From an uncultured bacterium (GTDB lineage: Bacteria > Omnitrophota > Omnitrophia > Omnitrophales > Abzuiibacteriaceae): a stretch of 64,000 nt of DNA. A program made the translations under genes and the position numbers. The notes under the pieces were generated by a model that was not told the origin of the DNA, ran no database searches, and worked only from the letters and a program-made list of their open reading frames with translations. The stretch is taken from NCBI GenBank assembly GCA_964387845.1, contig CAYLXA010000006.1:96001-160000 (forward strand), written 5' to 3'. Below, piece after piece: positions 1-22,381 of this stretch (the stretch's first letter is position 1; the number at the start of each line of letters is the position of its first letter).

Positions 1-3000
1 GCCGAAGAAGCGATTGAGCTTGTGTCGGCGGCACAAAAGAAAAGTGCTGTCGAGCAGCCGGTCTTGCTTTCGGATCTACCGCCCTTGTCCTATAGCCAAT
101 ACCGCTCAGAACAAACCCCGGGCGAACAGCTTTCCGGAATTGATCAATTCGTTTCAAAAGATATTGCGGAACAAATGAGAAAGGATGCCAGCATTTTCTC
201 ACCGCTTGCCGGCGCACCAGTCGGAACGCCGACGTATGGATTTAGGGACCAAAAGGGCGGGGATATTTTTGAAACTGAAAATCTGAGCGCGCTTGAGCTT
301 AAGAATCTTGAGAATGAAAGCGAATTTCAATCTGCGGATTTCGCGACTTCCATTCATGTTTTTCTCAAAGCGCGCGATTTGATTAACCGAGGGGCTGCCG
401 AACGCCGGCTCGAGCTTTTCCTCGAAGCGCTTCGAAAAGTCGAGCTCAGTCCGGACGGCTTGCTGTATGACCGTTACGATATCAAGCGACATTCTAAAAT
501 AGGCGAGAAGACCAACCTTCAAACATCTAAAGCTATCTACGAATTGGCGGTTCAAATCCAGAGCGAGTACGAACAAATCGCAAAAGGCCGTAGCAAGATT
601 GATATTCGCCTGATCAAAGAAAAGAATCTGATCCGGCTGGCAGGTTTGGTCAAAGAAAAATTTACGCGCGCACAAAACATCCGCTTACCTGAAATTCCGC
701 AGCCCGAATTGCCGAAGCGGTTGTTTGTCGAAAAAGATGCCGAACCGCTTCAAATCGAAGAATCCGTCGCAGCATCCAAGCCTTTGCTTGCGCCTGAAGT
801 GGTGCGCGTACCTCAAACCGCAGCGGTGAGCGGTGAGCGTGCGGTTGTTTCGAGCGTTGAAGAAATTGAGTTGGTGGCAGTGTCAACCCGGCCGCTTGTC
901 GAAGAAAAAGTTTTGGAGCCGGCCGTTGAAAAGCAAGAGCCGGCGGTTGCGCTTGTTGAATCAATTCCGGCGCCGGAGCAGGAAAAAGTTGAACCAAAAC
1001 CGGCGGTCATATCAGTCCAATACGAAATGCCGGGAAAAGGCGGTGATGTTAAAGTCGCTTATCCGGAATTTGAGCCCGGCCAAGTTCAAGTCATGTTCCA
1101 AACGGAAGTATCCGTTCCGGAAAAACCGGCTCCGGTTCCTGCTTCTGCTCCGCCTAGCACGACTCAAGCCAATCAGCCGGCAAGCCTTCAGGCAATTGAA
1201 GAAAAAACAGTTCAAGCCGTTCCGGCCGCAGCGCCGAGTTTGGTTTCGGCGAATAAGCCCGTTTCAATTGATGAAAGAGAGCCGGTTGAAATGGAAATCA
1301 AAATTGCCCAACAGCCTGAGAAGGTTGAAGAAGTTGAAAAGGCGGAACCAAAGGTGCCCGCCCAAAAGTTGCGCATTCAGCTTCCGGATTTCAAGCGATG
1401 GATAAAATCCGCCAAAATTGCGGCTGCAGGACTCGTGGCACTTTCCGGCGCCTGGGTCAATGAAGTTTCGGCAAAATTTCAAGCAATTCCTCCCGCTACT
1501 GTTCAAAAGGCACCAGAAGTAAAAGAAGCCAAAGAAGAAATCGTAAAAGAAGAAATTGCACTCACTCCGCCCGTCAAAATTGAAGCACCAAGCCAGGAAA
1601 AATGGACGGATCTTGAGCATCAAAAGACGGCCGATGTAGTCATGGCGGCTTTGCGCAGCGCGCCGCAGGATTTGCGCGAGAAAGTTTTGGAACTTATCCG
1701 GTCAAAAGCCGGCGCTCCGGATTACATCCGAGAATTTGATGATTTGGTTCCGGTTCCTGAAGACATTCGCTCGCGCGCCAAAATAGAAACTGTCTCTCCG
1801 GGGCAGGAAATTAAATATTTCGGTGAAAAAGAATTTTGGGACGCCATGCAGGCAATTTATCCGCCGGATAAGGATCGTCCGCATTTTACTCCGTCTTATA
1901 TCCGCGACAATAAAGTTGCGATGACGCATGAAGAATTATTGAACCGAAAAGACCTTGAAATTTACGTGAATGGCCGATCGCTCGGCCAAAAATCAGCCGA
2001 TCATTTACGCCAATCTAAAGAACTCGAAAAATTACCCATTTTCTTTATCCGTGTCGGCGCCGGTTTTGTCGGCTTTGATTATACGGGTGCGACGATTTCA
2101 ATCGGTTTGCGCGGCCAATATTCATTGGGCCATGATTTAGCCGAGTGGCGGCAGGTGCTTAATGTGATGTCGGAAGAACATAAAGTAGCGGCAGATATTC
2201 TGAAACGTTACGTTGCGTTCAGGGCCGTTGGATATCAATACGCACAAGCGCAAGAAAAAGTGAGTAATGCGGATGCGGAAATCAAACGCATGAACGAACA
2301 GCTTGCGAAGGGAATCTATCAAGTCGCAACTCATCAGGACGAATACGCGATCGGAAAAGCCATCAGCATCATTCAGCATGAAATTAAAACTCAGCAACAA
2401 TGGCGTTACAACCAGTACGACACGAGCCGTGTTTTAGGCGAAATCATGAAGCTTGACTCGCGTCAAGTGCATGTTGAATTAAATTCCGATTATGTGCGCC
2501 AAATCCGAAAAGAGTTTGCGGATGCGCCCAATTCTCTGAAATCGTTGGATCCCTATAAGCAGCAGGAAATTTATTTGAAGACAGCGATGGAAATTTTGAG
2601 TGACCGGATTGAATTGGCCCAGAGGCACCTGTCCAGCATCAGCTACGAACTTCGTTTCGATATCTTTTTGGCCAATAAGGCTTCGGACCTTTTGGCTCTG
2701 ATCGGCGGCTTTGGCGTCAGGAAAGGCAACGACCGGACACTTGGGCAAAAATACATTGACATCGCCAAAAAACAGATCGACCGCTACAAACAGTACGGCG
2801 ATGAGCGTTACAAGGTTGAAAAACTGGTTCGTGATTATCAAAAATTGAAAGAAAGATACGACACGACCTATACGGAATCCGTGAAGGCAGCGCAAAAACA
2901 TTATGAATTGGCCAAAAAGTTGGATGCGCTCGAAGTCATTCCGATTAACGAACTAGAACAGGCTTGGAAGGCCTATGAAAGTCAACTCAAGGAGAAAGAT

Positions 3001-6000
3001 GCGCTGTATGTACAACTTCAACGCATTGTTGCTGAGATGGAAGGGCTCCGCACTGCCCAGCTTTCAGCAGAATCGATTGAGAATCCGTCGCCAACCATGC
3101 GCGAACTTCAAAAGCTTGAGCAGCGCCTCAAAGATACGGATCAAATTGATTCGTTGGTTCAAATCAGGGAAGCCGAAGGTGTCACCGGCAATGAGCTTCA
3201 GTTTTATAAACGCATCCAGCAAAATCCGGACAAGGAAAGATCGGATATTCAAGCGGAGCGGGTTGAATTGGTAAGACAGCTGCGCGAAGATGCGAGCCGC
3301 ATTAGAGCGATTCAGGATAAAAGCGGGCTCAATATTGATTATCTCTATCCTCTGGATTCTCGAAAAGGTGAATGGATGTGGAAAACCGGCCGGGCAATCA
3401 AGGGGTTGGACGGTAAATATTACACAATCCCAATGCTAATTCCCATTAAGGCCGAATACCAGAGTTATGCGGAAAGTTTGATGGAACGCGGCCTCGCAAA
3501 ACAAAATTTCCTGGGTAACTTTCAATCATCATTTTCGGACCGCCATATTGAAGACCAAGCTCACGAGTTAATGAACCGGTATCTCGAAATCAGGCCGAAA
3601 GACGGACAAAAGCCTGCTTGGAGCCGCGAGGAACGAACACAGAAGATAAAAGAATTTAATGAAATGGCAGAGAGTTATTTAAAACGCCTCGAGGAACTTG
3701 TTCCGGCCTACGCTGCGCTTGATTATGCAGGAAGGCCGAAAAGTTATGGCGAGCGGCTCATGTCCGATGAGGAGTGGCAAAATTTTCACAGCGAATACAA
3801 AAAATTCGAGCGCAGTTATTATGCTGCGCAAGAAATGGTTGCGGAATTAAGCCAGGAAATTTTGCCGGCGACAGGCGATGCCGTCAATCCGCAGATTGAT
3901 GTCTTAAAAGCGCAAAAGTTAGCGGCTGAAACGGCCAAAAAATCAATCGATCTCAACATGTTTGATGAAGCGACAAACATCGCCGATGCTTCTGATTTGA
4001 CAATCCCTGAGCATATCATCGGGCCCGCGACTGTAAGGGCACAAACCACCGATGTGCCGGTCCGGGCTTGGCAAGAAGGCTTATTGTCGGCGGCAATGCC
4101 GATGATCCGAAAGCAGTCCAACGTTCTTTTTGACCTCAATATCCAGGGCTACAACTTCGAATTAGAAAGACTCTTCAAAAAAGATTTTGAAACCAAGGAA
4201 CTCCAGGCAATTCCCGTAATCGGCTGGTTTGTTCCGGGCAGCGATTCTGAAATTACGGAAATGAGAGCGCAGGTGTTGGTTATCCGCCAGAAAGTCATGA
4301 AGCCGGATGACAGCGGTTCGGGCGGCGGCCTTGGCGGTGGCATGGGTGGTGGCGGGCAATTACAGCTTCCGGGCAAATTGGGCAAACTCCAACAAATGAT
4401 GGGACAGATGCAGCAATTGATGGGTTCGTTTCAGGGCCTTGGAAACGGCGCGCAAACATTTCTCGGTGCGGCTGGTCAACGGTTTCCGATGGTAGCCCGT
4501 GCACAGGGCTTGCTGCAAGGAATCAATGCTCAGCAGCAAATCTTTAATCAATTTACAGGCGGCCAGAATTCTTCCCTCCTGCCGTTTGTCACAGGTCAAA
4601 TGAATCAGCTTAATCAAACCGGCCGGATTCCGTCTGTCGGTCTCGCGTCTTCCGGAGCGACAGGGCCGCACGGAGCACTGCAAACATCGACACCGGGCCG
4701 AGTCAGCGGCGAAGCTTATTCGGCGGATGCGTTTAATCAGGGACTTGATTCACTCAGGCAGGGCGGTGATTTAGCGAAGGAAGTGACGGGTAAGCTGCAA
4801 GGTCAAGGCGGTGAGCAGGGTGGTATGACAGAAGAGATCGAATATGAAATTGCCGGCGTGTTTACGGTCCAATTCAAATTAACGGGCAGCAATGAAGAAA
4901 AACAGAATCAGCTGCGCACTCTTATTGCACTTAATGAACAAAATAAAGTGCTTTACGAAACTGACCAGCAGAAGAAACTCCTCGAAATCGCAATTGATTA
5001 TGAGGGTAAGGTCCAGTTGCTCAGGGCAAGAAAGCTTCACCGCGAATTTGTCAATACCACACGGCGAGCTATCCTCGATAAATTCACCGAGTGGCGTGTA
5101 ACGCCGGCGAAACAGGTCGAATTTGAAGCAGATTTAGCCGTCATCGACAAGAACATTGACGACCTAGAAAAAGAAATCGCCGAGACGCCCAATAAAATCA
5201 GGGAAGCGCTGAAGGTTACACCGGAAGCTGCCAACGGCCTGCTGCACATGATGAAATCTGAAATCGAAAAGCACGGCATTGTCGATATTCGCGAACTGAA
5301 CGGCATTGAGAATTTACGCCGCCAAATTGTTGAGAACCCATATGCCGACCGGGCCGCAGGGTACCGTGTGCTTGCTGCTCAGCTGGAAGAATCGCGCGCA
5401 AAGTTATTTGAGAAAATCAAGAACGCTTATCAGGTTGAGCTGAGCGTCAGCACAAAGCTGGAATTCAATGTGGTGCTTCAGGAATTGGGTTACGCGATCC
5501 GCAATGCAGTCGCGGGTGAACAGCGCGGTACGATTAATGATTTTCTGGGTCAGATTCAAACGGGCCTGAATCCGCAGGAAATGCAAGGCCAAAGAGACCG
5601 GTTAGAGGCGTTGACGACCGCGATCCGGAAAAGCGGTCTCAAGCGCGAAGTGATGGATGCTTTATTTGAAGTTGCGATCGTCGAACGTGTCATGCAGGAA
5701 CGGGTCCGTCAAAATGAGAAAAATCGAATGGAGCAGCTCATTCGTTTAGAGGAAGCGAAGCTGCGTCTTCGGCGCGAAGAAATCCAGCTTGCAAAAATCC
5801 ATGAACAGAAAAGAATCACGCCCGCGGACAATTGGATCAAGCAAGTCCTTCTGTCCGCGGAGATCTATATTCAGGAGCTTTTGCTTATGGGTGCGCGGGA
5901 TGATCTGGCGAAAGCGATAATGCAGTCGCTTTCTGCGATCGCGATGAGCGAGGAAGAAATCCGGTCTTTGCAGGTTTTAACCAACGCAGAGCAGAGAATT

Positions 6001-9000
6001 CATGAATCAAACCGCCGGATCGGTCTCCTACAGGCGCAAGCCGTTGAAAGTGATGTGTCAACCCGGGAAGAATTTTTTGAACTCCAGAGAGAGTTGAAAT
6101 GGCTTTATGAGCGAAGAGACCAATATTCCTTGCCAAGCACACCGGACGGCTCTTTGAATGAGTTAGACCAAAAAATTGCAGAAAATCATAAAGCCATTCA
6201 AGCATTGGTTGCTGATGCGCTTCTGCGCAATCCGAAAATCAAAGAAAAAGTTACGAAAGAAGAAGTCATTCGTGATGAGCTCTTAATTTCTAAAAAGAAT
6301 ATCGAAGAAGAAAAGCAGGCTGTGATCAGCCGCCACGATCAAGAGGTGAAAGTGATTTTGGATCCGATGATCCAGCTCCATCAAGAACGTGCACAATTGG
6401 GAATTGATGCGGCCAATCGGCTCGATGTTGAGCGCGCCAAAAAGGGAGAGGACCCGGTTTTGGTCGAGCTCAGCGATGCGCGCCTTGCGCAAAGCGTGAG
6501 CGAAGTGGAGGGAATTGACCGAAACGCTGTCTTGGATGTGATGAGTAAGGTCATGAACGTGATCGGTGATATTGAAGTGGCGCAAACCATGCTGCGGGAA
6601 TGGGACGGAAAAGCGTTACCCCGTTACCTGGATCGCCTGCTCAGGAATCTGTATTTTCTGGCCGGCACCAATCAATTAGACGATGTGCTGCGCGGGACGG
6701 CGCAAGGGTCATTCAAAATGGGTATCGGCGGTTCGCTCATTAGCGATGAAGACCTGAGAAATTTAATCCGCGCGGAAGCCTCGCGCTGGGCGATTCGTGT
6801 GAAAGAAGTTGTCCGCGATAAGATCATCCGGGACGAGCAGGCAAAAATCTACAGCGAATATCTGCAGTATGTCAGTTTGATTGAAGAACTTTATATCGAC
6901 CTCAAAAATATCCGAGCCCTCGAGAAAGCAATCAAGGCTTACGAAGCCCGCGCTAAACGCCAATACGATACAGAGCGCTTAAACGATGCAACCGGCCCTT
7001 ATGAAAAATTAGAACAGGCGAAAGTCCGGCTTTATGTGTCTTTAAAAAGAATCAAGGTCCAGCGCGCACAGCTCGAATTTTTGACTCAGGAATATTTACC
7101 GCACAATGTGTCGGTCTTTAAATCCGTCAAGGCGTCAGGGAAGAGTGTTGAGGAAAATCTGGAGATCGAATTCCGAACCTCGGCGGCTCATGAACAAGGC
7201 GTCGACTTGGAAGCGCTTGGGGCCATGCTCAGCGGTGAAGTGGCTGCCGAAAATCCGTTTCCGGCCGGTTCCGACAAGGCAGTGTTTTGGAATAAATTTT
7301 ATAGATCCAATATCCGCGGCGATGAATTTATCCGTGAAGTCCGCAAGCTGCGGATGTCTCCGGAAGATGTGTCAAAACTCAAAAAAGAAAACGGGCTCGA
7401 GCAATGGATTTGGGGTTCTTCGGACAATCAGTTTCAAGTCGCAAAGGCCATGAACGAAAATTTAAATGCCGATGCCATTGGCTTTTTCCTATTTCCATTT
7501 GGCAGCTTCAAGTTTGACATCAACGCGTTTTTGGGCGGTTCCTGGGACTTCAAAAATAAACCCGAGTTCTTGAATATTATCAACGCTTCAGCCGAAGTGG
7601 AGTTTGACTGGGGCGCCAAATGGCAAGCCTTCCAATCGGCCGTTCAGAAATCTTTGAATGAAGCGTTTAAGCTAGATGAAATTTCAAATGACGCCGTCCG
7701 CCGACGCCATCAAATGCTCATGGAATATGCGTTTATGCAAATCATGTACGAAGCGTCCCAAGAAATATTGAAAACCGCCATCGAAAATGAATCCACATGG
7801 TATAAAGCGCTCATGAGGGGCAAGATTGACTGGGATAAATATTACACATCAAACACGCACGGCCTTGCGCGTATTTGGGACCTCGAGCGTACATTAAAAG
7901 AAGAATGGGTTGCATTGCATGCAGCCAGCCGCAACATTCAAAATTCTCTTGAGGAATCAGGAATTCAAAGCACCTCTGTTTTGATCCAGTCTTTCCCGCT
8001 TCCATTGCCGCCTGAAATTGAACACAAACTGGTGTCGGAAGCCGAGATTCAATTACAAGAGCATGCCGCCCAACAAGAAAAGGCGGCTCTTGAAAAAGCT
8101 GCCCAAGATGCAGCTGCAAGAACGAAATTCTTTTCCGAATTTAAAGACTTATTTTCAAGATTAAAATCACTGACCGAGAACATGTTGGTTAATCTCGAAA
8201 ACGTCATGAATAAACTCGGCGACCTGCAGGATCAATATAAGCCCACGCAGCATCACGGGGAGCTCTCACCTGAAGCAAAAGCAATTTTGCCTGACACGAA
8301 TGAATTTCTGAGAGTCTTGAAAGTCAAAACCCAGAGCGGTGTTGATTCTGTTGATTTGGAAACATTTGCCGAACGAATGGCAACGTTTGGAAGAGAGCGG
8401 CATATGTCGTCCGAGGATCTGCAAAATCTAATACGGTCTGCGATTGAAATTGCCAAAAAATTAGAAGCTGCACCGGGCGAAGCCCCGAATGAATTACAGA
8501 CAAAATGGGCTGCCATGTCTGCGCCCGGCACAAAAGCGGACGGCTCTGCGTTCTTGATGAGTGAACGTTGGCCGCCATTCCTGGAAATTCCTTTGCGGCA
8601 TCTGTTTACTCAGGAAGAAATCATACGCTCGAGAGGTTCTATCGCTGATAAGAATCTCAATTTATATCAAATCGGCGCCATTCTACTTTCCGCTATGCGC
8701 GAGCAAGCGGCTAAGGAGCTGGACTATCGGTTTGAGAACAATTTAGACGAACTGGTAAACGGTGTTGAAGCCTACAAACAAATCCGTGCCGGCTCCGGCG
8801 ATGCGTCAGCTGTGCAGCGCTATCTAAGTTGGTATAGGAAATGGGTGATCCCCGTAGGCAGTGCCGAGTCACTATTTTCAACCGGAGTTCTCCTTTACCG
8901 TCCTTGGGTTAAATTCCAAAGAGCCGGGGATCAGGAAATTAACATTGATGACATCAGACAGCATTGGTCGTTTGTGTCAACGTCATTTGTGAAGCATATT

Positions 9001-12000
9001 CAAAAATCCGAGAAATTTCAGGCAATCGCGCAATATTTAGGTCTGGATCCGGTTGAGTTTTTTGACAGTCAAAAAGATCAAGGCAGGCTCTACGCCATTA
9101 TTTCAGAACTGCTTAATACCGGCATTATTAAGACGCTGCCGACAACCGAAGCCGAACTGGAAGCTCTGAACGCCGAAATTGATCATTTCTTTGGCGAGCT
9201 CATGCCTTTGATTGAAGAACGCAAGTATTTCTACCTGACCGTAGGCGCTCTTCCGAATTACAGTGATTTAACCCAAATGCAGCATTACACCGCATTGGAC
9301 GGCAGATTAACAGGAACCGGCGGAGCGGAACTGCCATTCGCTAAATTCCAAGAAGATGCAGCGCGGATGGAAGACGGTATCGGCAAGTTACAAAAACTCT
9401 TACCTTCCGATATTATTTTTTATCAGCAAGTTAAAGAGGCGAAAAATGTTTTGGATGTTATCAAGAATGCCTCCGATTACTCTCAAATTTCAGACTTAGA
9501 AGGTCTCATGGACCATTTGCGAGAAATCGTGGACTACGCCCGCGAAACCTATGCGTCGTTGCTGCTGGGCGATGCCTACTATCATTATGGATTTTTCCGG
9601 GAGAATAAAGCAGTGCTGGTCCAGTTAAATTTAATAGATAAAAAGGATCTTAACTCCAAGGGGGCGCTGAAGCCGGATAGCTTGCGGCCAGTTACGCAAA
9701 AGTATAACCAGCTACTTCTCCATTCAAAGGATTACATTGAGCATTTTTACTTGGGTAAACCAATTGATTTCTCAAGCATGGATCAAATTGGTGTTTGGAA
9801 TGCGCTTGCGCAGACCAAAGCCGCCGGTTTGGATGATACGGTTTTCTCTGCGTATTTGAATTGGGCAAGCCGAATTGCAGGTATTCGTGAGAAAAGTGCG
9901 CTGTCCGATGCTAACCGCGAGCTTGCAGCGCAATTATGGAAAATCATTCCGGGACTTCAAGATAAAATATCAGAACAAAAATATGCGGAAGCTCTCGCAT
10001 CAGGCCTTGCGGTCCATATTCTTTTAAATCCCGAGCTGACCGAAGCTGATTTGATCCAGCTCATACAAAATATCAAGGCAATGTTGCAGAATCCGGAGTT
10101 GGTAGAGAGCGTTATACGAGAGTCACAGTCGGAGCTGGAAATTATATACGGCGAATTACGCTCCATTGATTTAACACGGCAGAAAGATTTTGGCATTTTC
10201 TTCAACGCATTTGCGGAAGCCCATGAATTGGGATTCAGCCAGTTTCTGGTCCGTCATCAGAGAACTATGAATTTGATTCAAGAGCATCAACGCATCCGGG
10301 AGCAGGAGAAAGGCACCGGCTCTCGAGCGGAAACCGCTTTGAGCCGCGCTATCCTGATCGGCAGTCAAATTGAAAGAGTTAAGAACGGTGACGGCGCAGT
10401 ACAGATTGATGAAATCTCATTCTTCCAAAATCAAAAAGCGCGCAATTCGGTCATGTGGGTTTTGAGCGGCATGGCAGACGAAGGTGTTGATCCTTTTGTT
10501 TTGAAATCTGAAGCTATTTTGGATTTTCTTAGGGAATTTTATTCAGATCAGCCGGTTCGTTACGATCATCTTGGCCGTGTTAGCGTGGATGCCGAGTCGA
10601 AAACAGCTGTGGAATTAGCAGCCGAGCTTGCTCGTGAGCGTGAAGTTGTATTTCAAGGCCAGGACGCACTCACTATTTCGGCAGAAGGCATCAAGCAAAG
10701 CCGTGTGATTTGGAACCGGGTGATGGCAGAGTTGGGCGGCATGGCGGACGAAGGCCTCCAAACCTGGATCCAAAAGCATCGCGGCAGCGATAAGCAAATC
10801 GGCGTCTTTCCAATGCTCTCAAACCGCGAACAGTTGAACAAATTATTTCCGTCTATTGAAGCATTCTATCAATCTATATTTGGAGCTGCCAATACACCCG
10901 AAATCAATCCAGAGACTTTCAAAGCCAATAAAAGGGTACAGATGCTTGTCACAGCCTGGTTGGGTTCGGCTGCTGAAGAGGGATTGGCAGAATGGAACGC
11001 CAAAAGCGATGTGATTGCTCGAATATTAAGCAATCCTGAAGAAAGAAAGCAAGTGATCGAAGCAACGCGGGAATATGCACATGCTCTGGAAAAAATATTG
11101 AAGATTGATTATCCGGAAATCAGCGAACAATCTTTGGTTGATGATCGCCGCGCGCGCGCTTTGGTTTTGGCTTGGACGGGCGCGCAGCAAGAGGACGGAA
11201 AAGTAAAATGGGCACGGAAAAACTCGGATATCATCACTTTCTCAGAGCGAGTCAATGCGCAAGCCGATTTTGCGGAGGGATTGGATAATGTCACGAGGCA
11301 TTATTATGAGGCCAAGTATGGGGAAGCGGTCGGCAGGTCCTGGACGCCGAGCCAACGAGGCCAGCAAGTCGGTTTGATTTTCATGCTGGCACGCCAGTAT
11401 GTGGAAAATCCAAATCTAACGGATGGCCGGCTGATCGAGTATGTTAACGCAATGGCTGATCTTGCCCCTGTCTTTATCGGAAGAGATGCATCATCCCGTT
11501 CGTTTGATCAATCCAGAATTCATCAAACCTATTTGAGGCTGATTGGTGAGACGAAATCGCGCCATGATCAGCAGCATGAAATGGGATGGGTTGATGCAGA
11601 ATTGGCGTATATGGCCGAACTGATTGGCTGGGATGGAGTTAATTGGAAGAAGCGAGACCGCTGGCGCTCACTAAGTTCTTCCGAAAAAATCGAGCACCGC
11701 TATCGAGTGCTCGAAAAAGCGACGGACCCTGTGATCCAGCAAGAAGCCAGGGATTTGATGGCGCTGGTTTCTTCCAAATCTTCGGATCAATGGGATCTGC
11801 GCGCTCATCCTTCAGACTTGGGCTTTTTGGTGACATGGGCAGACATGAAAATGGAGGCCGGGGAAGCAACCGATCTTTTCGGACAATACCGGCATGTGAT
11901 TGATTCTTCGGCATTCAGCCGTTATTTAAAGGAATTTGATATTGCCCAAGAATTCCGAAAGGAACTTGCGTCGACTTTTTCTGAAGTTGTGAAGAAGGCG

Positions 12001-15000
12001 AACGGGGAAGACGCGGACCGAAACCAAATCGAGCGTTTTTATGAACTCATGGGCCGCGTGTCATCTTTTGCGAAATTTACATCACTGCAATTTGATCAAA
12101 AAATAAAAGTCAATTTGGAAGTCATCGATGCGCTGAAGCGCTATTATGGCCAGTCTGCTTCTGATTCCAGCCAGGCAATGATCGACGGCGTCATTGATTT
12201 GTTATCCGTCCTTAAGATTGAGCCGGTTGAGCTGGCCGGAATGCAAGCTGAGAATTATTATCAACTCCGCGAAATGATGTACCTCATGGCAAAGATTTCT
12301 GAATACCGCAGAAACCGCGAGATGGCAAATGACGGCCCCGTTCCGCAAGCCTATGTTGAAGATATGAAAAGGGAATATAGGTCTGTTTTTGTTGAAAGTA
12401 TGCTGCCGGGATTTGCGCAGAAAATAGTGCCGGCCAAACACGGAAAATTGGAAAACTGGATCGGTGATTTTGAAAGCATTATCCGTGAATTGGCTGATTA
12501 TCCCATAGAGCTTGAGAGCAGCGATGCAATTTCTCAATATAATTTTGCGCGATTCCTGAAAAATCTAGAAGAGGAAGGCATTGTGCTTGATGACGCGTCA
12601 GTTAAAATTTACGAGCGGGTGTTCAAGCAGTACCAGCTCATGGGCCTCGCAAGCTGGTGGCTTGATCAGAAGCTTCCTGAGGCCGAGGAGCAATTTACGC
12701 TTTCTGAAATTAAAGAAAGGATTCAGAGAAAGAAGCTTGTCTGGGCTCTGAATGAGAAATACTGGAATTCAGAAAGTTTGCACATGCCAGTAACTGCGGA
12801 CGAGATATCATTCTTGGCCGATTTAGAGCTTTACGAAGACGAGTATGAACACTTTTTTAGAATGAGTGCCCTTTTCCAGAACTGGGCATCAGCTCACTTG
12901 GGCCGCCATCTTTTCTTTGATGAAATTATCTACTTCTATTTTGCTCCCGGTAAATATTTCGGTGACCTGGTCATGCCATTCCGCGGCGGCTTGTCTCGGC
13001 TTTTAACTTGGGGCCAGGACCCCGATTTGCTCTCCAGGTTTAGAGCGAAACATTTATTTGAAAATGTTTTAACCGGACCCGAACAAGCGCTTTATCAAGT
13101 GGCCATGAATCGAGAGAATGAAGAAAGGCGCTTTATTTTGTGGCATGGACAGAAACAGTTGCTAAGAGTGATTGGGCTGGGCCCGGATTATGAAGATTAC
13201 TGGTATGACATTCTGCATGAAAAGCAAACGCTGGGCGAATATGCAAGCGAGAAATATCTTAAAGAGTTGTTGGTAATGGGGCGTGTTCTGAGCGAGGGTG
13301 TTCGATGGCTTGCACTCGGCAATCACTTTTCATATGACGACAACATGCTGACTGATGAATTTAAGCGGAATCAATACATCATTTTAAGGCTGCTGACACG
13401 CCGCGAATACCGCATATTGACTTCAGATGAAGAGAAAATGAGCATCAAAAAGTTGATTGAGTATACGCGCGATCAAACCAAAAACAAGAAAGTCGAAATT
13501 GAAAATCCTTCGGAATGGGTTGAATCGCTAAAGGAATTAGCCCGAGCCCATAATCGTGTTATTGAAACCGAGCAAGAGCTTAAAGAAATCATTAAAAGTA
13601 TTTTATGGGATGCGGAAACGATTATCGACGAAGCTGATCGCGAATACGATGTGAAGCTTGATCAGGATTCTGTCCTGAAAGTAATCATGGAGCAGCGCAT
13701 CAACGGAGAGCTGCATCAAATCACCAAAGCAGAAGAAATGATTACAAAACATTTCGCCAATTCAGTTATTGGCAGGAATTCGATCGAATTGAGCAATGAA
13801 GAAAATCAGATGCCTGTCTCTGTATTGATTGAAAAATGGCTCAACGATTATGAACTTCAAAATACGCCGATTGCAGGCCTGAAAGACCGCTGGATATTGG
13901 CTGCCAATGACAGATCGTTGGATTATGTTTCGATTAAGACGATCTTTTCAGACCTTAAAACAATGCAGGACGCTTGGCGTAATGCGCCGCTGTTTAGGCC
14001 GATGGATTTAATCGAGTCATTAAAACTTGTGAATAAAGTCCGGCGCTTTGGTTTGGATAATATCGGCATTGTGGAGCCTGAAATATTAACGCCCGTTCAA
14101 AGAACGGAAAAATATAAGAAGAATAAGAAATTGTTTTTAGGAATGATCGGAAGCGATTTGATCGCGGATTCAACACAGCAAATCGCCATTCTTTTCAACC
14201 AGCAAACTAAAAACTGGAGCATTCAAAAAACAATTGACGATCTTGAGAAAGACAAATCAATTGAAACAAAACAAGAAAGCTTCCGCTTGATCCATGGTGC
14301 CGCCGTTGTATTGGTCCTGTCTCTTATTTTAGTAACCATTCGGGCGCATTATTTGAAATGGAGACAAATGCAGTCGGCTAAGAAGGCAGGGCTGCCGACA
14401 CCGCAAACGCCGTATCGCCAGGGTTTGTTCAAGAAAGTGAGCGAATCGGTTAAAGGGTTTTCGCCTTTGACTTGGGTCAATATTATTTATTTTGCCTCGG
14501 TGTTGCTGATCGCCGGCTCTATGTCGTGGGCTTACTTTGTTGCGCACGCTTGGGCAATTTCACATTCAACGTTTTCGACTTTGATGGTCATTATGTTTTC
14601 TTATTTGAGTTTAACCAACGCTCACATCTTGGTTGATCGTCTGATTACGCTCCCAAAATTCAGGGACCGATTATTTAGAAAGCAGCCTGTGGATGATGTA
14701 AAAACACCTAATTTTAAAGATGCTTTCCGTGCAGGAAATTTTCCTCCCGGGCATCAGGCGGTTGTTGCCATTATCACTCAAGCCAAAGGGAACACTTTTG
14801 GGAAGCTTGATCAAAGAACCGGCGAGTTGAAAGGGCAAGTGATTGAAAATTTAATGGTCTCATTAAAGAATAATCCCGGCGTGCCCGGTGTCATTATTCA
14901 GGCCGGACAGGATTTGGATGATGTAGAAACGAACCGGCAAATCCGCATGATCGAGGCGCTTGAGAAGGCGTTAGGAACGCGCGTTTATTATTTCAGGCGC

Positions 15001-18000
15001 AATAATTTATTTTCGGCAGGTGATATCAATCTTGAGAAGAAATTCGGTGCTTTCCAGGAATATATGCGATTTGTCGGTGACGGAGCTATGTTTGCCGAGA
15101 ATGAAACCGATCAATATCCGGGCCGTCACTTTGGCTTGGATGTTACGAAGAATGTGAGTTGGGTTGCGGGTTGGACAGTTTTAGCAGCAACGCTTTTCAA
15201 TGCATTAATTCCCGGGCTGTTATTGAATCCTCTTGGGCTTGTCGTTGGCATTCTGGGAATTTCTCTTGGCGTTGGGTATCTTTGGACTTTGTGGAAATAT
15301 GGGCAAGCGAAGCGAATCTCAATTAAGACCATTGTCGGAAAGAATGAGCTCTCGGCGTTGACGCGTTCAACCCTTCCATATTATGACGTCATCTACGGCG
15401 ACTTAGGAGCGATCGGTTTTGTCGATATGGAAAGCGGACAATCTCTCCAAGGAAGCAGGACTTGGCGTGCGGACGAGGCATATTGGCAAAAAATAAAATT
15501 AGACACTGAACACCCGAACAAAATTTGGCTTTCATTTATCTTGGACGACAAAAACAAAGTTGGCATGAACTCTACCAACGAAGACACGGAGGGTCTGACA
15601 GAGGCGGATCGATGGCTGCGAGACCGAATGAAAGTTGAGAACCCTCTTGAGCGGCGCGAACAAAATGCCTATTACGAAGCAGTTCGAAAAGCAGCGGAAA
15701 CGATGTATCGCGAAAGTTGGGCAGCCATGGGGCAGCCCGTTTATGAAATTGGCAACCCGAATGCCAGCATGTTTTCGGAGATGCTTTCAATTGCTGCCCG
15801 AGTCGGTGAATTTTATGCGGGCGCGCAGAAAATATTCGGCCGCGGACGGGCGAATTTTACCGGCAAAGGGCCCGTTGTCGTGGACAGGTGGCTGCATGGA
15901 ACGCGTGAACGCCATCAGAAAATCATGTGGGGTTTCGGCTTGGGCAGTATCGGCGGTGTTTTGGTGGGTGCGCTGATTTCGTCTTTGCTCTTTGGTGTTG
16001 GGAATATCGGCTTCGGAATGCTAATTGGATATTTCTTGGGCGGAGCAATCCTCGGGAATTTTGAAATGCGGTACGGAACCGCATACGGCGTTATTTATTA
16101 CGGAGAACTTTCACATGATTATGCGGAAGGCGGCAGTGTGGGTGCGGCCTATCTCAGCAATGTCGGAATCACGGAAGATGCAACAACGGATTTGGCTAAA
16201 GAGAACGAGCGCGGCCCAACGCGCTGGTTCCAAGGCGTTATCCCGTACTGGCGTCATCAATTTGGCCCGGGCTACACACTCATTGATCGTTGGATGATGT
16301 TTCTGGCGGAGAAAATGTATTTAAATGATACGTTGTTCCTATTTTGGTTAATAGGCGGATTTGTCGGGATTACGTTTTCCGGTTTGGCTGACACTTTCTA
16401 TCCAGTGGCGCGTCTTCAAGAATATTCAGAACCTCTTTATGCAATGGGGTTGTATATATTGAACATGTTGGTCATCATAGGTTTTGCTAACTTTGTTGGA
16501 GCTTTTTGGAAGAGCGCCGATAACGCAGGCGTCGCTACTTCTAAGGAGAGGTTCCAGGCAATTGCTCGTTCCACGATGATTTATCTCAACAAACCCTTTA
16601 TCACGACCGCATACGCAATTCCGAACTTGTTCCGCGTATTAGTCGGCGGCGAACATCCGAGAGCGCGCGATTGGGCTCCGGAGCACAAGCTTAGGGCATT
16701 GGTTTTTGGATCACTTATTGGGGCAATTAATTTACTCTTACTTGCCAACCTTTTTGTCGGCTGGGTGTCGATTTCGTGGATGGTGCCGGCGGCAGTTTTT
16801 GTGGCTTCATTTTATGCGATTCATCGTTTGGCGGGGCGGTATATTCCGGTAGCCCGAATTTTTGCGGAACTTTTATATTTAACTCTCAAATTTTCTCTAT
16901 TTGCTATTCCAATCGTGGTTTTATCGGCCTATTCGTATATAAATGAACCTTTAGTGGCTTTTCTCGAGAAATTCTCGTTCATCAGCTTTATCAGCGCACC
17001 TATCCAGGCGCTCTTGATTCAAATTTTCGGAACTATCATTTTAGAGGCCAAAGCATTGAAATGGATTCGTGAACTTGAAGAAATTTTAAAAGAACCGCTG
17101 CCTTGGAGAGGGTTTACGCTGGTCGCCGGGTCGAAGGGGCCTTTGAAAATGTATGAATCGGCTGTGATGGTAAAGTGGTCGTTGATTACTACCGTTGCGG
17201 TGATTTTATCCCACGTAGTCATCACCTCTAACTTTTGGGTTATTTCAGGATGGGGAATTCCTCTCTTCGTGTCCTGGTCAATTGGGTGGTTTTATGTTTG
17301 GTATACCTCAAAAATGATGCCTGATTTTGTTCGTGAAACAAAAACAGATAAATCCGGAGAAGTCATTAAAGATGCTCAAGGTAAAGCCAAACTATTCCCG
17401 CGGCTATGGAAATCTATACCGAAACTGGCCATCGCCGAACTTGTAAAGACTTCGAAGAATAAAGAAGATAAGGAGATAATCAGAATCGGAGATGTGCAGA
17501 TTAAAATGGAAGACATTCGATGGAGGACGGTCCCGACCATTCTCTTTCTTTATACGAAAGAAGCCCTGTCTCTTAGCAGTATGAAGCAAAATTTGAATCC
17601 AAGTGTTCTTTGGAAGAAAATTAAATCTGCGCCTGCGCGGGCAGACCATTGGGCAAATGGTCTTTTTATGCTCGGAGTGGTGTTCGGCACTTTCCTATTT
17701 TTGGGTGTTGTGATCGGCACTCCGCTTTATTTATGGTTCGGGACCGGTCACTTATTTTTACCAACCGCATCGTTCTGGTCGAAGGTCGGAATCGTTTGGC
17801 AGTATTACATCGGAGCCGTAGTTGCCGCTCTGGTGTTGCCGGGCGTGTTTGGCCATTTATTTGCATTGACCGTATTTCCGCTGGTTTGGATCAATCGCCA
17901 ACTTGTCTTAATTAAAACGTTCTTCACGAAGGTTGTTGATACCAAGGGGCCTAATTTTAAAAAGGGCCATGACGACAAAGGATCGCCCGAAAGTATTCAA

Positions 18001-21000
18001 GAAGGCGTGCAAAATGTTCAACTCGAAGTTGCTAACTTTATTTCTCAAATTTCAAACCGCAAGATTTCAGGATTTGCCGATGAAGTGATGAGAGAAAAAG
18101 ATCCGGTCAAAATATTCGACATGTTCTTCAATCTGGATGCTTTTAAAATATGGAAATTTAGGATCGGCGGCAGTCTTTTCAGGTGGATTCATCAAGTAAA
18201 AATGAAGCGAGAAGCTTGGCGGATGAGTCAGCGTCCAGACGATTATATGTCGGTTGCACAACATCAGAACGAGATGTTTATTGCCTTAAAGGCGCTTTTT
18301 GAAGGCCGTACAGATTTTCTGAATCAAAAGACTTTTGATAAACAGGCTTTAGATTCCGCGCTCTTGAAGCGGCTACAAGAAAGCGTGGACAGTTTGAGCG
18401 AGAGAGAAAAAACATTGCTTGCCTTGACGGTTGTGCTCAAAGATTTTGGTAAAATCGCGACTGCAGGCCCCCTGGACCCTGTTGCAGGTTCGAATATCGT
18501 AGAAAAATTGCTGACAAAGCTCCAATTTGATCCGAAAGATGTCCACTTTATCAAGCAGCTTATTCTCAGAAACCGCGAGCTTGGGTCATTGCATTGGGGT
18601 GAAAAAGACCCGCTCAAGATTTTATCCGGTTTGGAAGTTGAAAAAACAGAGCTATTTCTAAAACTGCTGACCATTATTTATGTGGTGGATGTTTCGGCGG
18701 TAGGCACGGGAAAGCTAACCTCCACACATTTAAGTAATGCATTATTTATGCAGGATCAAAGCAACCTTTATTCCTTTGCTTTGACCTGGCCCGAGTTTCG
18801 CGCGGCAAGTTTTTATAGTAAAGCCGCAGGGCAGGTATTGGATTTAAACCAGCCGCAGTTTACCAATCATATAGATCCGGTTTTGTTGCAGGAAATCAAA
18901 GAGAGCGGCGGAAATTATGATTTCCGGGAATTTATGTATAACGTTACATTTCAAAGAGCGATCAATATTTTCCGCTATTTTGTCCGGAACGGACACCCCG
19001 AAAATGTCACCAAACTTTTATATATCTTTTTCAGGCTGTATCAAATTACCGGTATGAAATACATCGGAATTTTGGATGACAGCGAGCCGGTAGCCGAAGC
19101 TTTGGATAAAAAACTGTCCTCGATTTCATGGGAGGAGCTCCGGTTTGCTCGTGTTGAAGCCCCGTCTGTTGAAGTGAAATTGCAGAAAGAAACGGAGTGG
19201 GATACGACGCGGGATACTGTCTATGCTATCGAAAAGAGCACGGTGGTGGTAAGAAAGAAAACAAATTTAGATACCGTAGAAACCGTTCTGAGCCTGCCTT
19301 TTCAATATACGGATGACCACCAGCAAGTTCTTATTAACGCAGATCCGGACCCGTCCCCCCGCTCAGAGCTTCGCCAAATTAAAATCGGTGATTTGACATG
19401 GCTTTCTTCTATCAGTGAGTTTCAGAAACTCAAGGCTACAAACCCAGCTCGCGCAGCTCATATGGCAGAAGTGGTTCGATATTTTAAAGCATTTTCCGAA
19501 GGTGATTTTGCCTATTTTGCGGAAAGGCTGCAAGATCGTGCTGCAACTCAGCCGGACAAAATTGCAAGGTTTGAAACAAAGATGAGTGATCTCAAGAAGA
19601 AATTCGATAGTTTGAACGATGACCAGCGTTTGGCGCTGTGGCTTGCGGTCAATCTACACGATATCGGCTATTTAACCGGCGGAAGCAAAGACGAGAGCAC
19701 GCGAGGTTCCGTCTTGGCTGAAGAAATTTTGACACGGGAAGGCGTAAAGGAATCTGTAGTTGACCTTGCAAGCCGGATCGTGCTCGCGCATGAACTGTTG
19801 GGCAATGTGGTGGTCGGAGAGCGCGCACCGCAATCGGCCTGGCCCAGCATCGCGCCGTTATTTGATTTTCTGCAAATCCACACGGTGGTTGATGTGGCTG
19901 GTTATGGGTTGATGACTACTTATGTGTTGGATTGGTTTTTGGAAGTCAAAGACAAGTTAGAGCAGATTGCACAGACTTTTGATCAATATAGGTTGGAACG
20001 TTTGGTCAAGCCGGCTCCTAATGCTGATGCTATTAGTGCAGATGCTCTGGAGCATTTAAACGATGCTATCCGAAAAATTTTTGGAGATGAAGAAGAGATT
20101 TTGCGTTCTGTGCTGCGAAGCCGAGTTGAATTTTTAAGCCGCTCCAGCACCATTGCCCGCAAATTGGCTGCAATAGATCCTTCATATGAAGGTTATGCCA
20201 AATTTATGCGCATGGCCGGGCATCTCGCTCTCTTGGCGGGTGAGGACGCCAGCATTTCTGTTTTCAGCGATTTAGATCGGTTTGATGGCCGGCCCACTTC
20301 TAAAAAGGATATGGATCAGGCGTTGGAAGCTATCGCTCAGCGCATATTAGAATTGCCAAACACGATCAGTATTACGGATGCACGGTATCATTTGGAAGAG
20401 TCGGGTTGGAGGAGTTATTTTGAAGTTCCAATTATGCGTAAAGAGAATCAGATTACAATTTCAACGGTCAAATCGCACAAACCTCTTCTTGTATCGGAGA
20501 GCGATCTTTCAAATATCAGCGCGAATCAACTTCCGGTTCGCGATGCATGGGGAGTTGAAGCGAGAATTTTTAAAGACGAGTCTGGTGAGCATGGCGAAAA
20601 GGGAAAGTGGTATTTAAAAGTTGAAAACCTTTCTGATCGAGAACAATATCCTTGGGTTAAGTTTCCGTTTGAAATTTTTAAAGAGTTATACACGCCATTT
20701 TTTATAAAGGATGTTTCAAAAAGCCAAGCGCGATCCGGCTACGATATTTTATTTAATGCTAAAGGCCAGAATGGCAAGCCGGGAAATATCAATCCCGAAA
20801 CGGGTGAAATAGTCTTTCATTTAAGATCGTATCAACACCACCTGTTTGATCTCAGCACGATCAGCGTCATTGAAGATCGAGAGGTGCAAGATCAGGAAGG
20901 TGCGGTGAGTATTCATCGCATTATCCCGTCACAATTTTTTGAGCTTGGGCGTTCAGAGCTTCGGATTGCGGAAAATCGGGCGAGTGCTGCACCGGCCGGA

Positions 21001-21606: not shown

Positions 21607-21650
21607 AAGTACTCATTTTTTTAAATCGCACGGCCGATAATTAATTTGAT

Positions 21651-22241: not shown

Positions 22242-22277
22242 AATCGCCGGCTTTACCTCCTAAAATGCCTTATTGCC

Positions 22278-22305: not shown

Positions 22306-22310
22306 TACTT

Positions 22311-22359: not shown

Positions 22360-22381
22360 GAAGGAGAATTTAGGTGTCAAA

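What the first reader, a model, noticed from the sequence alone, without database searches (positions are those of the whole stretch)
14281..17930. Polytopic membrane domain (about 12 helices, about 1200 aa) embedded in the middle of the giant protein, with glycine-zipper helices
Roughly a dozen hydrophobic helices with long polar loops are inserted after more than 4700 aa of soluble sequence, and more than 1200 aa of soluble sequence follow. The protein is therefore anchored in the membrane by an internal transporter- or channel-like module rather than a signal peptide. Two helix pairs (15181-15300; 15930-16065, GVGNIGFGMLIGYFLGGAILG) carry GxxxGxxxG glycine-zipper patterning. That pattern is characteristic of tightly packed oligomeric channel or pore helices.
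Basis: partly seen in the sequence, partly recalled or inferred. Interest (0 to 1): 0.7.

Follow-up and report, generated by a model that had tools for sequence, protein, structure and literature searches.

The report
Split glucan-synthase module inside giant protein
The membrane-spanning block in the middle of this giant (over 7,000 aa) Omnitrophota protein is a very divergent relative of the bacterial membrane sugar-polymer synthases Cgs and OpgH. Its catalytic domain is cut into three pieces by two membrane hairpins, so the block is probably an enzyme and not only an anchor or channel.

Summary
In the 7,194-aa ORF (window 22-21606, 5' end outside the window), strongly hydrophobic helices occur almost only in aa 4755-5964. 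There are about 18 of them, not 12, and they are conserved in relatives.

The 'long polar loops' are a GT-A glycosyltransferase domain.
[quoted passage not shown] Shuffled controls give E of at least 0.28.
- The catalytic-base Asp (LSHD, D5366) and the RW motif (R5401/W5402) are invariant.
- The first UDP-binding Asp is not conserved, and the DxD site reads DDKN.

Two conserved TM hairpins split the domain. The second carries a family-conserved GxxxGxxxG zipper on both helices.

Charge distribution, conserved odd TM parity and domains in relatives suggest the N-terminal 4,750+ aa lie outside the cytoplasm, with the GT pieces and C-terminal 1,230 aa inside.

The family is rare: 19 hits in 1.84 billion representative proteins. 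Nearly all long hits are giant proteins, and every named one is from Omnitrophota.

Verdict: a new variant of a known kind. Activity, product and export are inferred, not shown.

The parts
22..21606 (+). Giant ORF, 7,194 aa within the window. It is open at the 5' window edge, has 0 Cys and no Pfam or NCBIfam hit.
22..14286 (+). N-terminal non-hydrophobic region, aa 1-4755. It is predicted to lie on the extracytoplasmic side. Its last ~1,100 aa (from nt 10969) belong to the conserved family core.
   Evidence: OEP/TolC-like domain at the equivalent side in relative P0005
10969..17931 (+). Conserved core of the protein family, aa ~3650-5970. It comprises ~1,100 aa of soluble sequence of unknown fold plus the TM/GT block. 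The flanks outside it are not conserved.
   Evidence: blastp to L001 and P0001-P0010
14287..14340 (+). TM1 (aa 4756-4773). It is followed by the conserved IRAHYL motif and a K/R-rich loop (9 K/R, 1 D/E).
14467..14637 (+). TM2-TM3 (aa 4816-4872), running from the GFSPLxWxNIxYF motif to the HIxxDR motif. This pair lies immediately upstream of the GT domain, as TM helices do in Cgs.
14719..15141 (+). GT-A domain piece 1 (aa ~4900-5040). Strands are VVAIITQ, GVIIQ and VYYFRR. The motif N..KK.GA..E..RF.GDG matches Cgs WERKRGKL.eLn and OpgH RKSGNIDDF.
   Evidence: AF2 pLDDT 75-89; hhalign piece 1 vs Cgs 82%, E 1.1e-5
15157..15294 (+). TM hairpin 1 (aa 5046-5091), inserted in the GT domain. It carries two GxxxG motifs but no strict GxxxGxxxG.
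15304..15921 (+). GT-A domain piece 2 (aa 5095-5300). It contains YGDL..GF, the near-invariant LDDKN (aa 5174-5178, nt 15541-15555, candidate DxD), VRKA.E.M..WAA.GQP, and NFTGKG (aa 5278-5283, nt 15853-15870), which matches Cgs sFtGKG.
15925..16059 (+). TM hairpin 2 (aa 5302-5346), inserted between NFTGKG and LSHD. A GxxxGxxxG glycine zipper on both helices is conserved across the family.
   Evidence: weak Gly-zipper Pfam hits in 2 members; Rhs1 TM-helix hit E 0.04
16060..16329 (+). GT-A domain piece 3 (aa 5347-5436).
- ELSHDYAEG (aa 5362-5370, nt 16105-16131) carries D5366, which aligns to the Cgs catalytic base D739.
- ITED/V.EP follows.
- R5397...R5401-W5402-FQG (nt 16210-16236) aligns to Cgs R773-W.
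- GPGxTLxDRWxMFLAxKMYLND is the interface-helix region.
   Evidence: residue roles in Cgs from PMC10901819
16330..17307 (+). TM8-TM15 bundle (aa 5437-5762), with short K/R-poor outer loops and K/R-rich inner loops. The conserved LPW...SNxW...SWxxGxxxWYTSK segment is weakly colinear with Cgs LEW...lW.lsP.iaW.
   Evidence: hhalign E 0.058; HMMER domain 3
17308..17658 (+). K/R-rich loop (aa 5763-5879; 24 K/R). It is predicted to be cytoplasmic and varies in the family.
17659..17913 (+). TM16-TM18 (aa 5880-5964). Whether the last 44 hydrophobic residues make one or two spans is unresolved.
17914..21606 (+). C-terminal soluble region (aa 5965-7194) plus the stop codon. It is predicted to be cytoplasmic. 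aa 6051-6453 is shared only with relative P0010 (34% identity).
   Evidence: GlgA-like and DUF4922/HEAT domains on this side in relatives P0009 and P0007

Best explanation
The internal membrane block (aa ~4755-5965) is a highly divergent membrane-embedded glycosyltransferase module. [quoted passage not shown]

Anatomy. The GT-A catalytic domain lies on the cytoplasmic face and is encoded in three pieces: aa ~4900-5040, 5095-5300 and 5347-5436. Two conserved transmembrane hairpins separate the pieces. The second hairpin is a glycine zipper. About 10 more TM helices follow the domain.

Shown: the homology, the fold, the conservation of the catalytic-base Asp (D5366) and the RW motif (R5401/W5402), and the conserved hydrophobic helices.

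Inferred:
- The module is active. It would take a cytoplasmic nucleotide sugar, probably a glucose donor by analogy, and elongate a glycan processively.
- The helices around the active site guide the polymer into or across the inner membrane.
- The N-terminal 4,750+ aa lie on the far (periplasmic or outer) side of the membrane, and the C-terminal 1,230 aa lie in the cytoplasm. The giant protein would then couple a cytoplasmic part, a synthase and a very large extracytoplasmic part in one chain.
For: Sequence to PDB. A family profile (A3) searched against all PDB sequences gives Cgs/NdvB (8rf9, 8rf0) as best hit. E is 0.03, with three colinear stretches.

Profile against profile.
- With the two hairpins spliced out, the family profile matches 7 diverse Cgs sequences at 96.7% probability, E 4.5e-10, over 311 columns spanning the whole GT domain.
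- The unspliced profile gives four colinear hits.
- Reversed and 20 column-shuffled Cgs profiles score at most 20.4 (E at least 0.28), against 89.4 for the real one.
- For scale, Cgs against OpgH gives 95.4%, E 1.7e-8.
- The family against an OpgH profile gives 69%, E 4.3e-5, plus a colinear second hit.

Motifs. D5366 (LSHD), R5401 and W5402 are invariant across the family. They align to Cgs D739 and to R773 of the RW motif, whose roles are given in PMC10901819. The FtGKG motif is shared with Cgs.

Topology.
- K/R-rich and K/R-poor loops alternate strictly.
- The number of TMs upstream of the GT domain is 3 or 5 in every relative examined, so parity is kept by the insertion of a whole hairpin.
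- Relative P0005 has an OEP/TolC-like domain on the N-terminal side.
- Relatives P0009 (GlgA-like) and P0007 (DUF4922/HEAT) have these domains on the C-terminal side.

Not an artefact. The architecture recurs in about 10 long or giant proteins (2,529-8,076+ aa), and every named one is from Candidatus Omnitrophota.
Against: - No curated family model reaches threshold. Pfam and NCBIfam give nothing for the window protein. One relative hits Glycos_transf_2 at only E 0.006.
- The AF2 models are poor overall (mean pLDDT 48.8 and 52.3). Only the N-terminal half of the GT-A core is confident. The SHD/RW half and the TM bundle are not, so no channel can be seen.
- The position aligned to the first UDP-binding Asp (Cgs D527) is Thr, Ala or Gly in the family. 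The neighbouring residue is Asp in only about half the members and is Gln in the window protein.
- The candidate DxD reads D-D-K-N, with Lys at the third position. hhalign placed the Cgs TLDsDT on a different, less conserved LD.
- The helices flanking the GT domain show no significant similarity to Cgs or OpgH helices (E 0.058 at best).
- Donor, product, processivity and translocation all rest on analogy.
- Cgs itself does not export its product, so a channel is not implied by the closest relative.
Confidence: 0.72

Rival explanations
1. The block is a catalytically dead, GT-derived module. It keeps the fold and the acceptor or glycan-binding groove but no longer transfers sugar. It would serve as a membrane anchor or glycan-binding scaffold for the giant protein.
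For: The first UDP-binding Asp is not conserved and is Gln/Ala in the window protein. The DxD site is DDKN, with Lys in place of the metal-binding Asp. No curated GT model reaches threshold.
Against: The catalytic-base Asp, the RW motif, GKG, the KK of the KAGN-like motif and D5175/K5177/N5178 stay invariant or nearly so, while mean column identity is only 21-26%. That pattern suggests selection on an active site. Metal-independent GT-A enzymes with basic residues in place of the cation are known (from general knowledge, not tested here).
Confidence: 0.17
2. The block is an active synthase that works like Cgs and not like OpgH or BcsA. The glycan would be built on the cytoplasmic side, possibly primed on the protein itself, and would not be threaded through the module. 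The extra helices would only anchor and organise the enzyme.
Against: The Cgs priming Tyr (Y694) aligns to a variable column. There is no cyclase or GH94 phosphorylase domain. There are about 18 TM helices against 6 in Cgs. TM parity predicts a huge extracytoplasmic N-terminal part, which gives an exported polymer a plausible destination.
Confidence: 0.2
3. The block is a transporter- or channel-like anchor whose glycine-zipper helices oligomerise into a pore, and the loops are merely polar linkers.
For: About 18 conserved TM helices. A conserved GxxxGxxxG on both helices of hairpin 2. Weak hits to glycine-zipper families.
Confidence: 0.06
4. The arrangement is an assembly or gene-calling artefact that fuses a standalone membrane GT gene into neighbouring ORFs.
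For: The region does align to a family whose known members are separate, much shorter proteins (OpgH 847 aa, Cgs about 2,800 aa).
Against: The reading frame is uninterrupted for 21.6 kb. An independent Logan contig is identical over the 14.4 kb compared and is annotated with a 6,244-residue call of the same gene. The colinear core (about 1,100 soluble aa plus the block) is embedded in-frame in about 10 long or giant proteins from other samples. Every hit longer than 1,000 aa in 1.84 billion representative proteins is itself at least 1,746 aa long.
Confidence: 0.02

Closest known systems
[quoted passage not shown]
   Same: - The GT-A domain is docked under TM helices.
- Motifs are shared: GiP..rT.V.iP, the R/KKxGK-type motif, FtGKG, LSHD.xEG (catalytic base), V.E.P and R...RW.
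- It too is a very large multidomain membrane protein.
   Different: - Here the GT domain is interrupted by two TM hairpins.
- There are about 18 TM helices, not 6.
- An odd number of TMs lies upstream, so the N-terminal part is predicted outside; in Cgs the N-terminal domain is cytoplasmic.
- There is no cyclase or GH94 phosphorylase domain.
- The priming Tyr is not conserved, the first UDP-binding Asp is not conserved, and DxD reads DDKN.
- Sequence identity is about 17-21%.
OpgH/MdoH, osmoregulated periplasmic glucan glucosyltransferase (GT2)
   Same: Profile-profile match at 69%, E 4.3e-5, plus a colinear second hit. It runs from the IQS/GQP motif through YWGHNA~NFTGKG, ILSHDFVEA~ELSHDYAEG and RDRRWCHGN~R..RWFQG to the helix carrying MSYLS~KMYLN. 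Like this module, OpgH is a polytopic inner-membrane synthase with a cytoplasmic GT domain.
   Different: OpgH is a standalone 847-aa protein with about 8 TMs and no hairpins inside the GT domain. It passes Pfam PF13632/PF00535, which this module does not. It has canonical D and DAD motifs.
Processive membrane GT2 synthases (BcsA cellulose synthase, hyaluronan synthase, chitin synthase, CesA/CslF6)
   Different: No sequence-level match was detected. In those enzymes a defined glycan channel is seen, whereas here no confident TM model exists. None of them has TM hairpins splitting the GT domain, to my knowledge (not tested exhaustively).
Omnitrophota giant proteins (West-Roberts et al. 2023, bioRxiv 10.1101/2023.11.21.568195; Nielsen & Lui 2026, bioRxiv 10.64898/2026.06.07.730766)
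   Same: Same phylum, since all named relatives are from it. Very long ORFs with clusters of TM helices are reported there, many of them Pfam-dark, and sugar-metabolism modules are common in such proteins.
   Different: - In the window part, Pfam finds no SecA_DEAD, dockerin, TSP3, C39 or other family that defines the published classes.
- Those studies excluded TM regions from structure prediction.
- In the text I searched, they report no Cgs/OpgH-like membrane synthase module.
- At 7,194+ aa, this protein is below their 10-kAA catalogue cut-off unless it extends far upstream.

Membership tests
Membrane GT-A synthases of the GT2/GT84 lineage (Cgs, OpgH, BcsA-like) | GT-A (Rossmann-like beta/alpha/beta) nucleotide-sugar transferase fold | tested here: met
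   [not shown]
Membrane GT-A synthases of the GT2/GT84 lineage (Cgs, OpgH, BcsA-like) | Significant sequence-profile similarity across the catalytic domain | tested here: met
   hhalign against the Cgs profile gives 96.7%, E 4.5e-10, over 311 columns; shuffled controls give E of at least 0.28. Against the OpgH profile it gives 69%, E 4.3e-5. This was achieved only after splicing out the two hairpins; unspliced, the hits are colinear at 71-77%.
Membrane GT-A synthases of the GT2/GT84 lineage (Cgs, OpgH, BcsA-like) | Catalytic-base Asp in the (T/S)(E/H)D motif (Cgs D739, BcsA D343) | tested here: met
   LSHD with H5365 and D5366 is invariant in 11-13 family sequences and aligns to Cgs LSHD.
Membrane GT-A synthases of the GT2/GT84 lineage (Cgs, OpgH, BcsA-like) | QxxRW-type motif (Cgs R773-W, BcsA R382-W) | tested here: met
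   R5397, R5401, W5402 and G5405 are invariant and align to Cgs R.hRWaRG and OpgH RDRRWCHG.
Membrane GT-A synthases of the GT2/GT84 lineage (Cgs, OpgH, BcsA-like) | First nucleotide-binding Asp at the end of beta2 (Cgs D527, BcsA D179) | tested here: not met
   The aligned column is Thr, Ala or Gly. The preceding column is Asp in about half of the members and Gln (IIQAG) in the window protein. The alignment register is uncertain by one residue.
Membrane GT-A synthases of the GT2/GT84 lineage (Cgs, OpgH, BcsA-like) | DxD metal/diphosphate-binding motif (Cgs D624, BcsA D246) | tested here: inconclusive
   The near-invariant L-D5175-D-K5177-N5178 sits at the end of a predicted strand and is the natural candidate, but it has Lys at the third position. 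hhalign instead aligned Cgs TLDsDT to a less conserved KLDTE at aa 5159-5163.
Membrane GT-A synthases of the GT2/GT84 lineage (Cgs, OpgH, BcsA-like) | GT domain flanked by TM helices on both sides and facing the cytoplasm | tested here: met
   TM2-3 lie directly upstream and TM8 onward directly downstream. K/R counts place all GT pieces inside. This is prediction only.
Membrane GT-A synthases of the GT2/GT84 lineage (Cgs, OpgH, BcsA-like) | Glycosyl transfer from an NDP-sugar; processive polymer formation; translocation | not testable with these tools
   No biochemical data exist, and the AF2 TM region is too uncertain to show a channel.
[quoted passage not shown] | C-terminal cyclase (GH189-type) and GH94 phosphorylase domains; Tyr-linked primer (Y694) | tested here: not met
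   No Pfam, NCBIfam or PDB-sequence hit appears anywhere in the remaining 6,000 aa. Y694 aligns to a variable column. It is not a Cgs orthologue.
OpgH (Pfam Glyco_trans_2_3 PF13632 / Glycos_transf_2 PF00535) | Score above the curated Pfam/NCBIfam cut-off | tested here: not met
   No hit even at E up to 10 for the window protein. One relative hits PF00535 at E 0.006, below threshold.
Glycine-zipper TM helices (GxxxGxxxG) | Gly at i, i+4 and i+8 on a TM helix, conserved among relatives | tested here: met
   Met for hairpin 2: starts at aa 5304, 5308 and 5332, and the family glycines are invariant or nearly so on both helices. Not met in strict form for hairpin 1, which has two GxxxG only. Oligomerisation was not tested.
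Published Omnitrophota giant-protein classes (Archaeovorin / dockerin-type / SecA_DEAD-bearing) | Dockerin, TSP3, C39 peptidase or SecA_DEAD domains | tested here: not met
   None is detected by Pfam in the 7,194 aa inside the window. The part of the ORF upstream of the window is unseen.

The most novel reading that the evidence does not exclude
The giant protein is a single-chain, envelope-spanning glycan machine. A cytoplasmic C-terminal part and a split Cgs/OpgH-like synthase build a polysaccharide. The expanded helix bundle, including the glycine-zipper hairpins inserted next to the active site, threads it across the inner membrane. It is handed to, or covalently built on, the protein's own 4,750+ aa extracytoplasmic N-terminal part. 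This would give these ultra-small, possibly predatory Omnitrophota a self-glycosylating or glycan-presenting surface giant.
Probability: 0.15. Interest if true: 0.8.

Novelty: new variant of a known kind. Interest (0 to 1): 0.6.

Why it matters
Omnitrophota giant proteins are mostly functional dark matter. Published analyses skipped their TM regions when predicting structures.

This result gives one such Pfam-dark family a concrete and testable biochemical core: a membrane glycosyltransferase related to the glucan synthases Cgs and OpgH. It also gives specific residues to mutate (D5366, R5401/W5402, D5175/K5177).

It shows an unusual way of building a GT2/GT84-type enzyme. The GT-A domain is split by two membrane hairpins, and the DxD site is altered to DDKN. 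That matters for how these synthases can evolve and for finding them, because standard HMMs miss the module completely.

If the predicted topology holds (N-terminal part outside, C-terminal part inside), the protein links cytoplasmic sugar chemistry to a very large extracytoplasmic domain in one polypeptide.

Tried and rejected
- Pfam and NCBIfam on the whole giant protein and on the TM block gave nothing usable, even at E up to 10.
- Word-indexed homologue searches failed. The TM block as query found nothing, and the family alignment found only one fragment, probably because TM words swamp the candidate list.
- The first genome-contig scan with a single protein found nothing. A 5-sequence alignment then found 3 Omnitrophota MAG loci.
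- Single-sequence PDB searches of the block and of both flanks gave nothing meaningful.
- Global hhalign of the unspliced family against OpgH misaligned the N-terminal motifs because of the hairpin insertions. Splicing the hairpins out solved this.
- Cropping the AF2 target to aa 4870-5500 did not improve confidence: pLDDT 52 against 49.
- The afdb50 library was unavailable.
- L001 could not be used in the AF2 alignment.
- I tested whether the TM helices themselves are homologous to Cgs or OpgH helices. They are not significantly so: E 0.058 for the LPW...SW..G..W segment and nothing for TM2-3.
- I looked for a Cgs-like priming Tyr and found it not conserved.
- I looked for internal repeats in the giant protein and found none.
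- I looked for glycan-export partners next to the gene. The neighbours are housekeeping genes: nusA-infB, pnp, ftsK, the dcw cluster and gcv.
- I rejected the assembly-artefact reading.

Full report
**Observation.** The window carries one open frame from base 22 to 21606 on the + strand, 7,194 aa.
- There is no in-frame stop in bases 1-21, so the gene starts upstream of the window.
- All but one of the Kyte-Doolittle 19-residue windows above 1.6 fall within aa 4755-5964, which is nt 14284-17913. The exception is a single weak one at aa 6211. This matches the finding's coordinates.
- By inspection and hydropathy I count about 18 hydrophobic helices, not about 12.
- In an alignment of relatives the same columns are hydrophobic, with a family mean above 1.4 for almost every segment.
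- The two 'helix pairs' are genuine helical hairpins at aa 5046-5091 and 5302-5346.
- A strict GxxxGxxxG occurs only in the second hairpin, starting at aa 5304, 5308 and 5332. There it is conserved on both helices across the family.
- The first hairpin has only two GxxxG motifs.

**Relatives and source.** The protein has no Pfam or NCBIfam hit anywhere.
- A full HMMER scan of 1.84 billion representative proteins with aa 4790-5975 found only 19 hits. Ten are long proteins, nine of them 4,000-8,000 aa and one 2,529 aa; the rest are shorter pieces, most of them fragments.
- One JGI metagenome contig carries a relative whose frame is open across the whole 24 kb fetched.
- blastp shows that the conserved core is window aa ~3650-5970. 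This is about 1,100 aa of soluble sequence plus the TM block, and it is colinear in all relatives. The flanks are unrelated, except for aa 6051-6453, which is shared with one relative.
- All members that carry an organism name, and the three loci found in GTDB genomes, are from Candidatus Omnitrophota.
- The window's neighbours are ordinary chromosomal genes: nusA, infB, truB, ribF, pnp, ftsK, the mur/fts division cluster and the glycine cleavage genes.
- A Logan assembly contig from run SRR15237813 is identical to the window over the 14.4 kb compared (window 19639-34048). It is annotated with a 6,244-residue truncated call of the same gene.
- An assembly or fusion artefact is therefore very unlikely.

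**What the block is.** The family alignment exposed conserved motifs in the 'polar loops'. In order they are:
- VxxIIT
- YYFxR...N..KK.GA..E..RF.GDG
- [hairpin 1]
- YGDL..GF
- LDDKN
- VRKA.E.M..WAA.GQP
- NFTGKG
- [hairpin 2]
- ELSHDY.EG
- V.EP
- R...RWFQG
- GPG.TL.DRW.MFLA.KMYLND

Four independent tests tie these motifs to membrane glucan synthases.
1. [quoted passage not shown] E is 0.03, with three colinear stretches that include LSHD...RW.
2. I fetched seven diverse Cgs genes from plasmid records and built a Cgs profile.
   - With the two hairpins spliced out, the family profile matches it at 96.7% probability, E 4.5e-10, over 311 columns that span the whole GT domain.
   - Unspliced, it gives four colinear hits.
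   - Reversed and 20 column-shuffled Cgs profiles never exceed score 20.4 (E at least 0.28), against 89.4 for the real profile.
   - For scale, Cgs against OpgH gives 95.4%, E 1.7e-8.
3. Against an OpgH profile the family scores 69%, E 4.3e-5, plus a colinear upstream hit. Against the single E. coli OpgH sequence E is 4e-4.

The AF2 models themselves are poor overall, with mean pLDDT 48.8 and 52.3.
- Only the N-terminal half of the GT-A core and hairpin 2 are reasonably confident.
- The fold evidence therefore rests mainly on that half.
- Nothing can be said about a channel.

**Active-site residues.** The Cgs structure paper assigns D527 and D624 to UDP binding, D739 as catalytic base and R773 to the RW motif (PMC10901819).
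- D739 aligns to D5366 here (LSHD), which is invariant.
- R773 and the Trp of the RW motif align to R5401/W5402, also invariant.
- The FtGKG motif of Cgs is also present, as NFTGKG.
- The column aligned to D527 is not acidic. The neighbouring column is Asp in only about half the family and is Gln in the window protein.
- The best DxD candidate is the near-invariant L-D5175-D-K5177-N5178, with Lys where canonical enzymes have the second Asp. hhalign's own placement of the Cgs DxD is on a less conserved LD ten residues upstream.

I read this as a probably active but non-canonical donor site. A dead enzyme remains a real alternative.

**Topology (inferred).** With 18 helices, loops rich in K/R alternate strictly with short loops of 20 aa or less that carry 0-1 K/R.
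- The K/R-rich loops are aa 4774-4815, the three GT pieces, 5497-5558, 5601-5613, 5675-5715 and 5763-5879. This places all large loops in the cytoplasm.
- TM1 is followed by a strongly basic conserved motif (IRAHYL...).
- The number of helices between the upstream conserved soluble region and the GT domain is 3 in the window protein and two relatives, and 5 in four others. The difference is one whole inserted hairpin, so odd parity is preserved.
- That predicts the N-terminal 4,750+ aa on the opposite side of the membrane from the GT domain, and the C-terminal 1,230 aa in the cytoplasm.
- Domains in relatives agree. P0005 has an OEP/TolC-like segment N-terminal of its block. P0009 has a GlgA-like glycogen synthase domain, and P0007 has DUF4922 plus HEAT repeats, C-terminal of the block.
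- The last 44 hydrophobic residues (one span or two) remain ambiguous.
- The true N-terminus is unseen. Relatives P0001 and P0010 start with a hydrophobic segment.

**Mechanism proposed.**
- Shown: a conserved, membrane-embedded, Cgs/OpgH-related GT-A module split by two TM hairpins, inside a giant Omnitrophota protein.
- Inferred, moderate confidence: it transfers sugar from a cytoplasmic NDP-sugar onto a growing glycan, using D5366 as base and the RW motif to hold the acceptor.
- Inferred, low confidence: the glycan passes through the helix bundle next to the active site. Hairpin 2 is inserted exactly between the FtGKG and SHD motifs, which face the membrane in the solved synthases. The glycan would then reach the side where the huge N-terminal part sits.
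- The alternative is Cgs-like behaviour: cytoplasmic synthesis and no self-export.

**Comparison with what is known.** It works like, and is homologous to, the GT84/GT2 membrane synthases.
- It is not a Cgs orthologue. It has no cyclase or GH94 domains and no conserved priming Tyr.
- It does not meet any curated GT model threshold.
- Two papers on Omnitrophota giant proteins note abundant TM helices and sugar-metabolism modules. They left TM regions out of structure prediction, and in the text I searched they do not describe such a synthase module.

I therefore rate it a new variant of a known kind, of moderate to good interest. It turns a Pfam-dark giant into something testable and shows an unusual split GT-A architecture. 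Catalysis, product and export are unproven.

Noticed in passing
window 22-21606: The giant protein has no cysteine at all in 7,194 aa. The 33 neighbouring proteins average 0.89% Cys (113 of 12,761), and the other two frames of the gene contain 214 and 347 Cys codons. Most relatives are also nearly Cys-free (3/8,076, 0/5,491, 0/5,355, 1/5,337), but two are not (26 and 33). Both the predicted outside and inside parts are Cys-free, so topology alone does not explain it.
   Followed up: partly
window 1-21: The giant ORF is open to the first base of the window, so its N-terminus, and any signal peptide or further TM cluster, is not in the window. Relatives P0001 and P0010 begin with a hydrophobic segment and have an extra TM cluster around aa 900-1450.
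   Followed up: partly
window 10969-14286 (aa ~3650-4755): About 1,100 aa of soluble sequence directly upstream of TM1 is conserved in all giant relatives (22-35% identity). It has no hit in Pfam, NCBIfam or PDB sequences, and its fold and role are unknown. By TM parity it would be extracytoplasmic.
   Followed up: partly
window 18172-19380 (aa 6051-6453): A ~400-aa C-terminal segment is shared with only one relative (P0010 aa 7234-7603, 34% identity, E 1e-57). The rest of both flanks has no detectable relative, which suggests modular and rapidly changing flanks around a fixed core.
   Followed up: no
relatives P0005, P0007, P0009 (protein ids): Other family members carry recognisable extra modules. 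P0005 has an OEP/TolC-like segment N-terminal of the block. P0009 has a GlgA-like glycogen/starch synthase domain (aa ~6003-6421), and P0007 has DUF4922 plus HEAT repeats, both C-terminal of the block. NCBI names two of them after these minor domains ('TolC family protein', 'glycogen/starch synthase').
   Followed up: partly
window 21651-22241: A 196-aa ORF with no Pfam hit starts 44 nt after the giant gene's stop and sits where rimP normally precedes nusA-infB. The giant gene is therefore directly upstream of, and co-oriented with, a core transcription/translation operon. Every ORF I annotated in the window is on the + strand.
   Followed up: no
window 38056-39687: A STAND-type NTPase (AAA_16 / nSTAND1, 543 aa) lies between mgtE and a HIT/HD-domain gene pair, just before the division and cell-wall (mur/fts) cluster.
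   Followed up: no
window 4315-4425 (aa 1432-1468): This is the only other place in the protein with GxxxGxxxG patterns. It lies in a glycine-rich soluble stretch (aa 1201-1500, 10% Gly), not in a hydrophobic helix.
   Followed up: no
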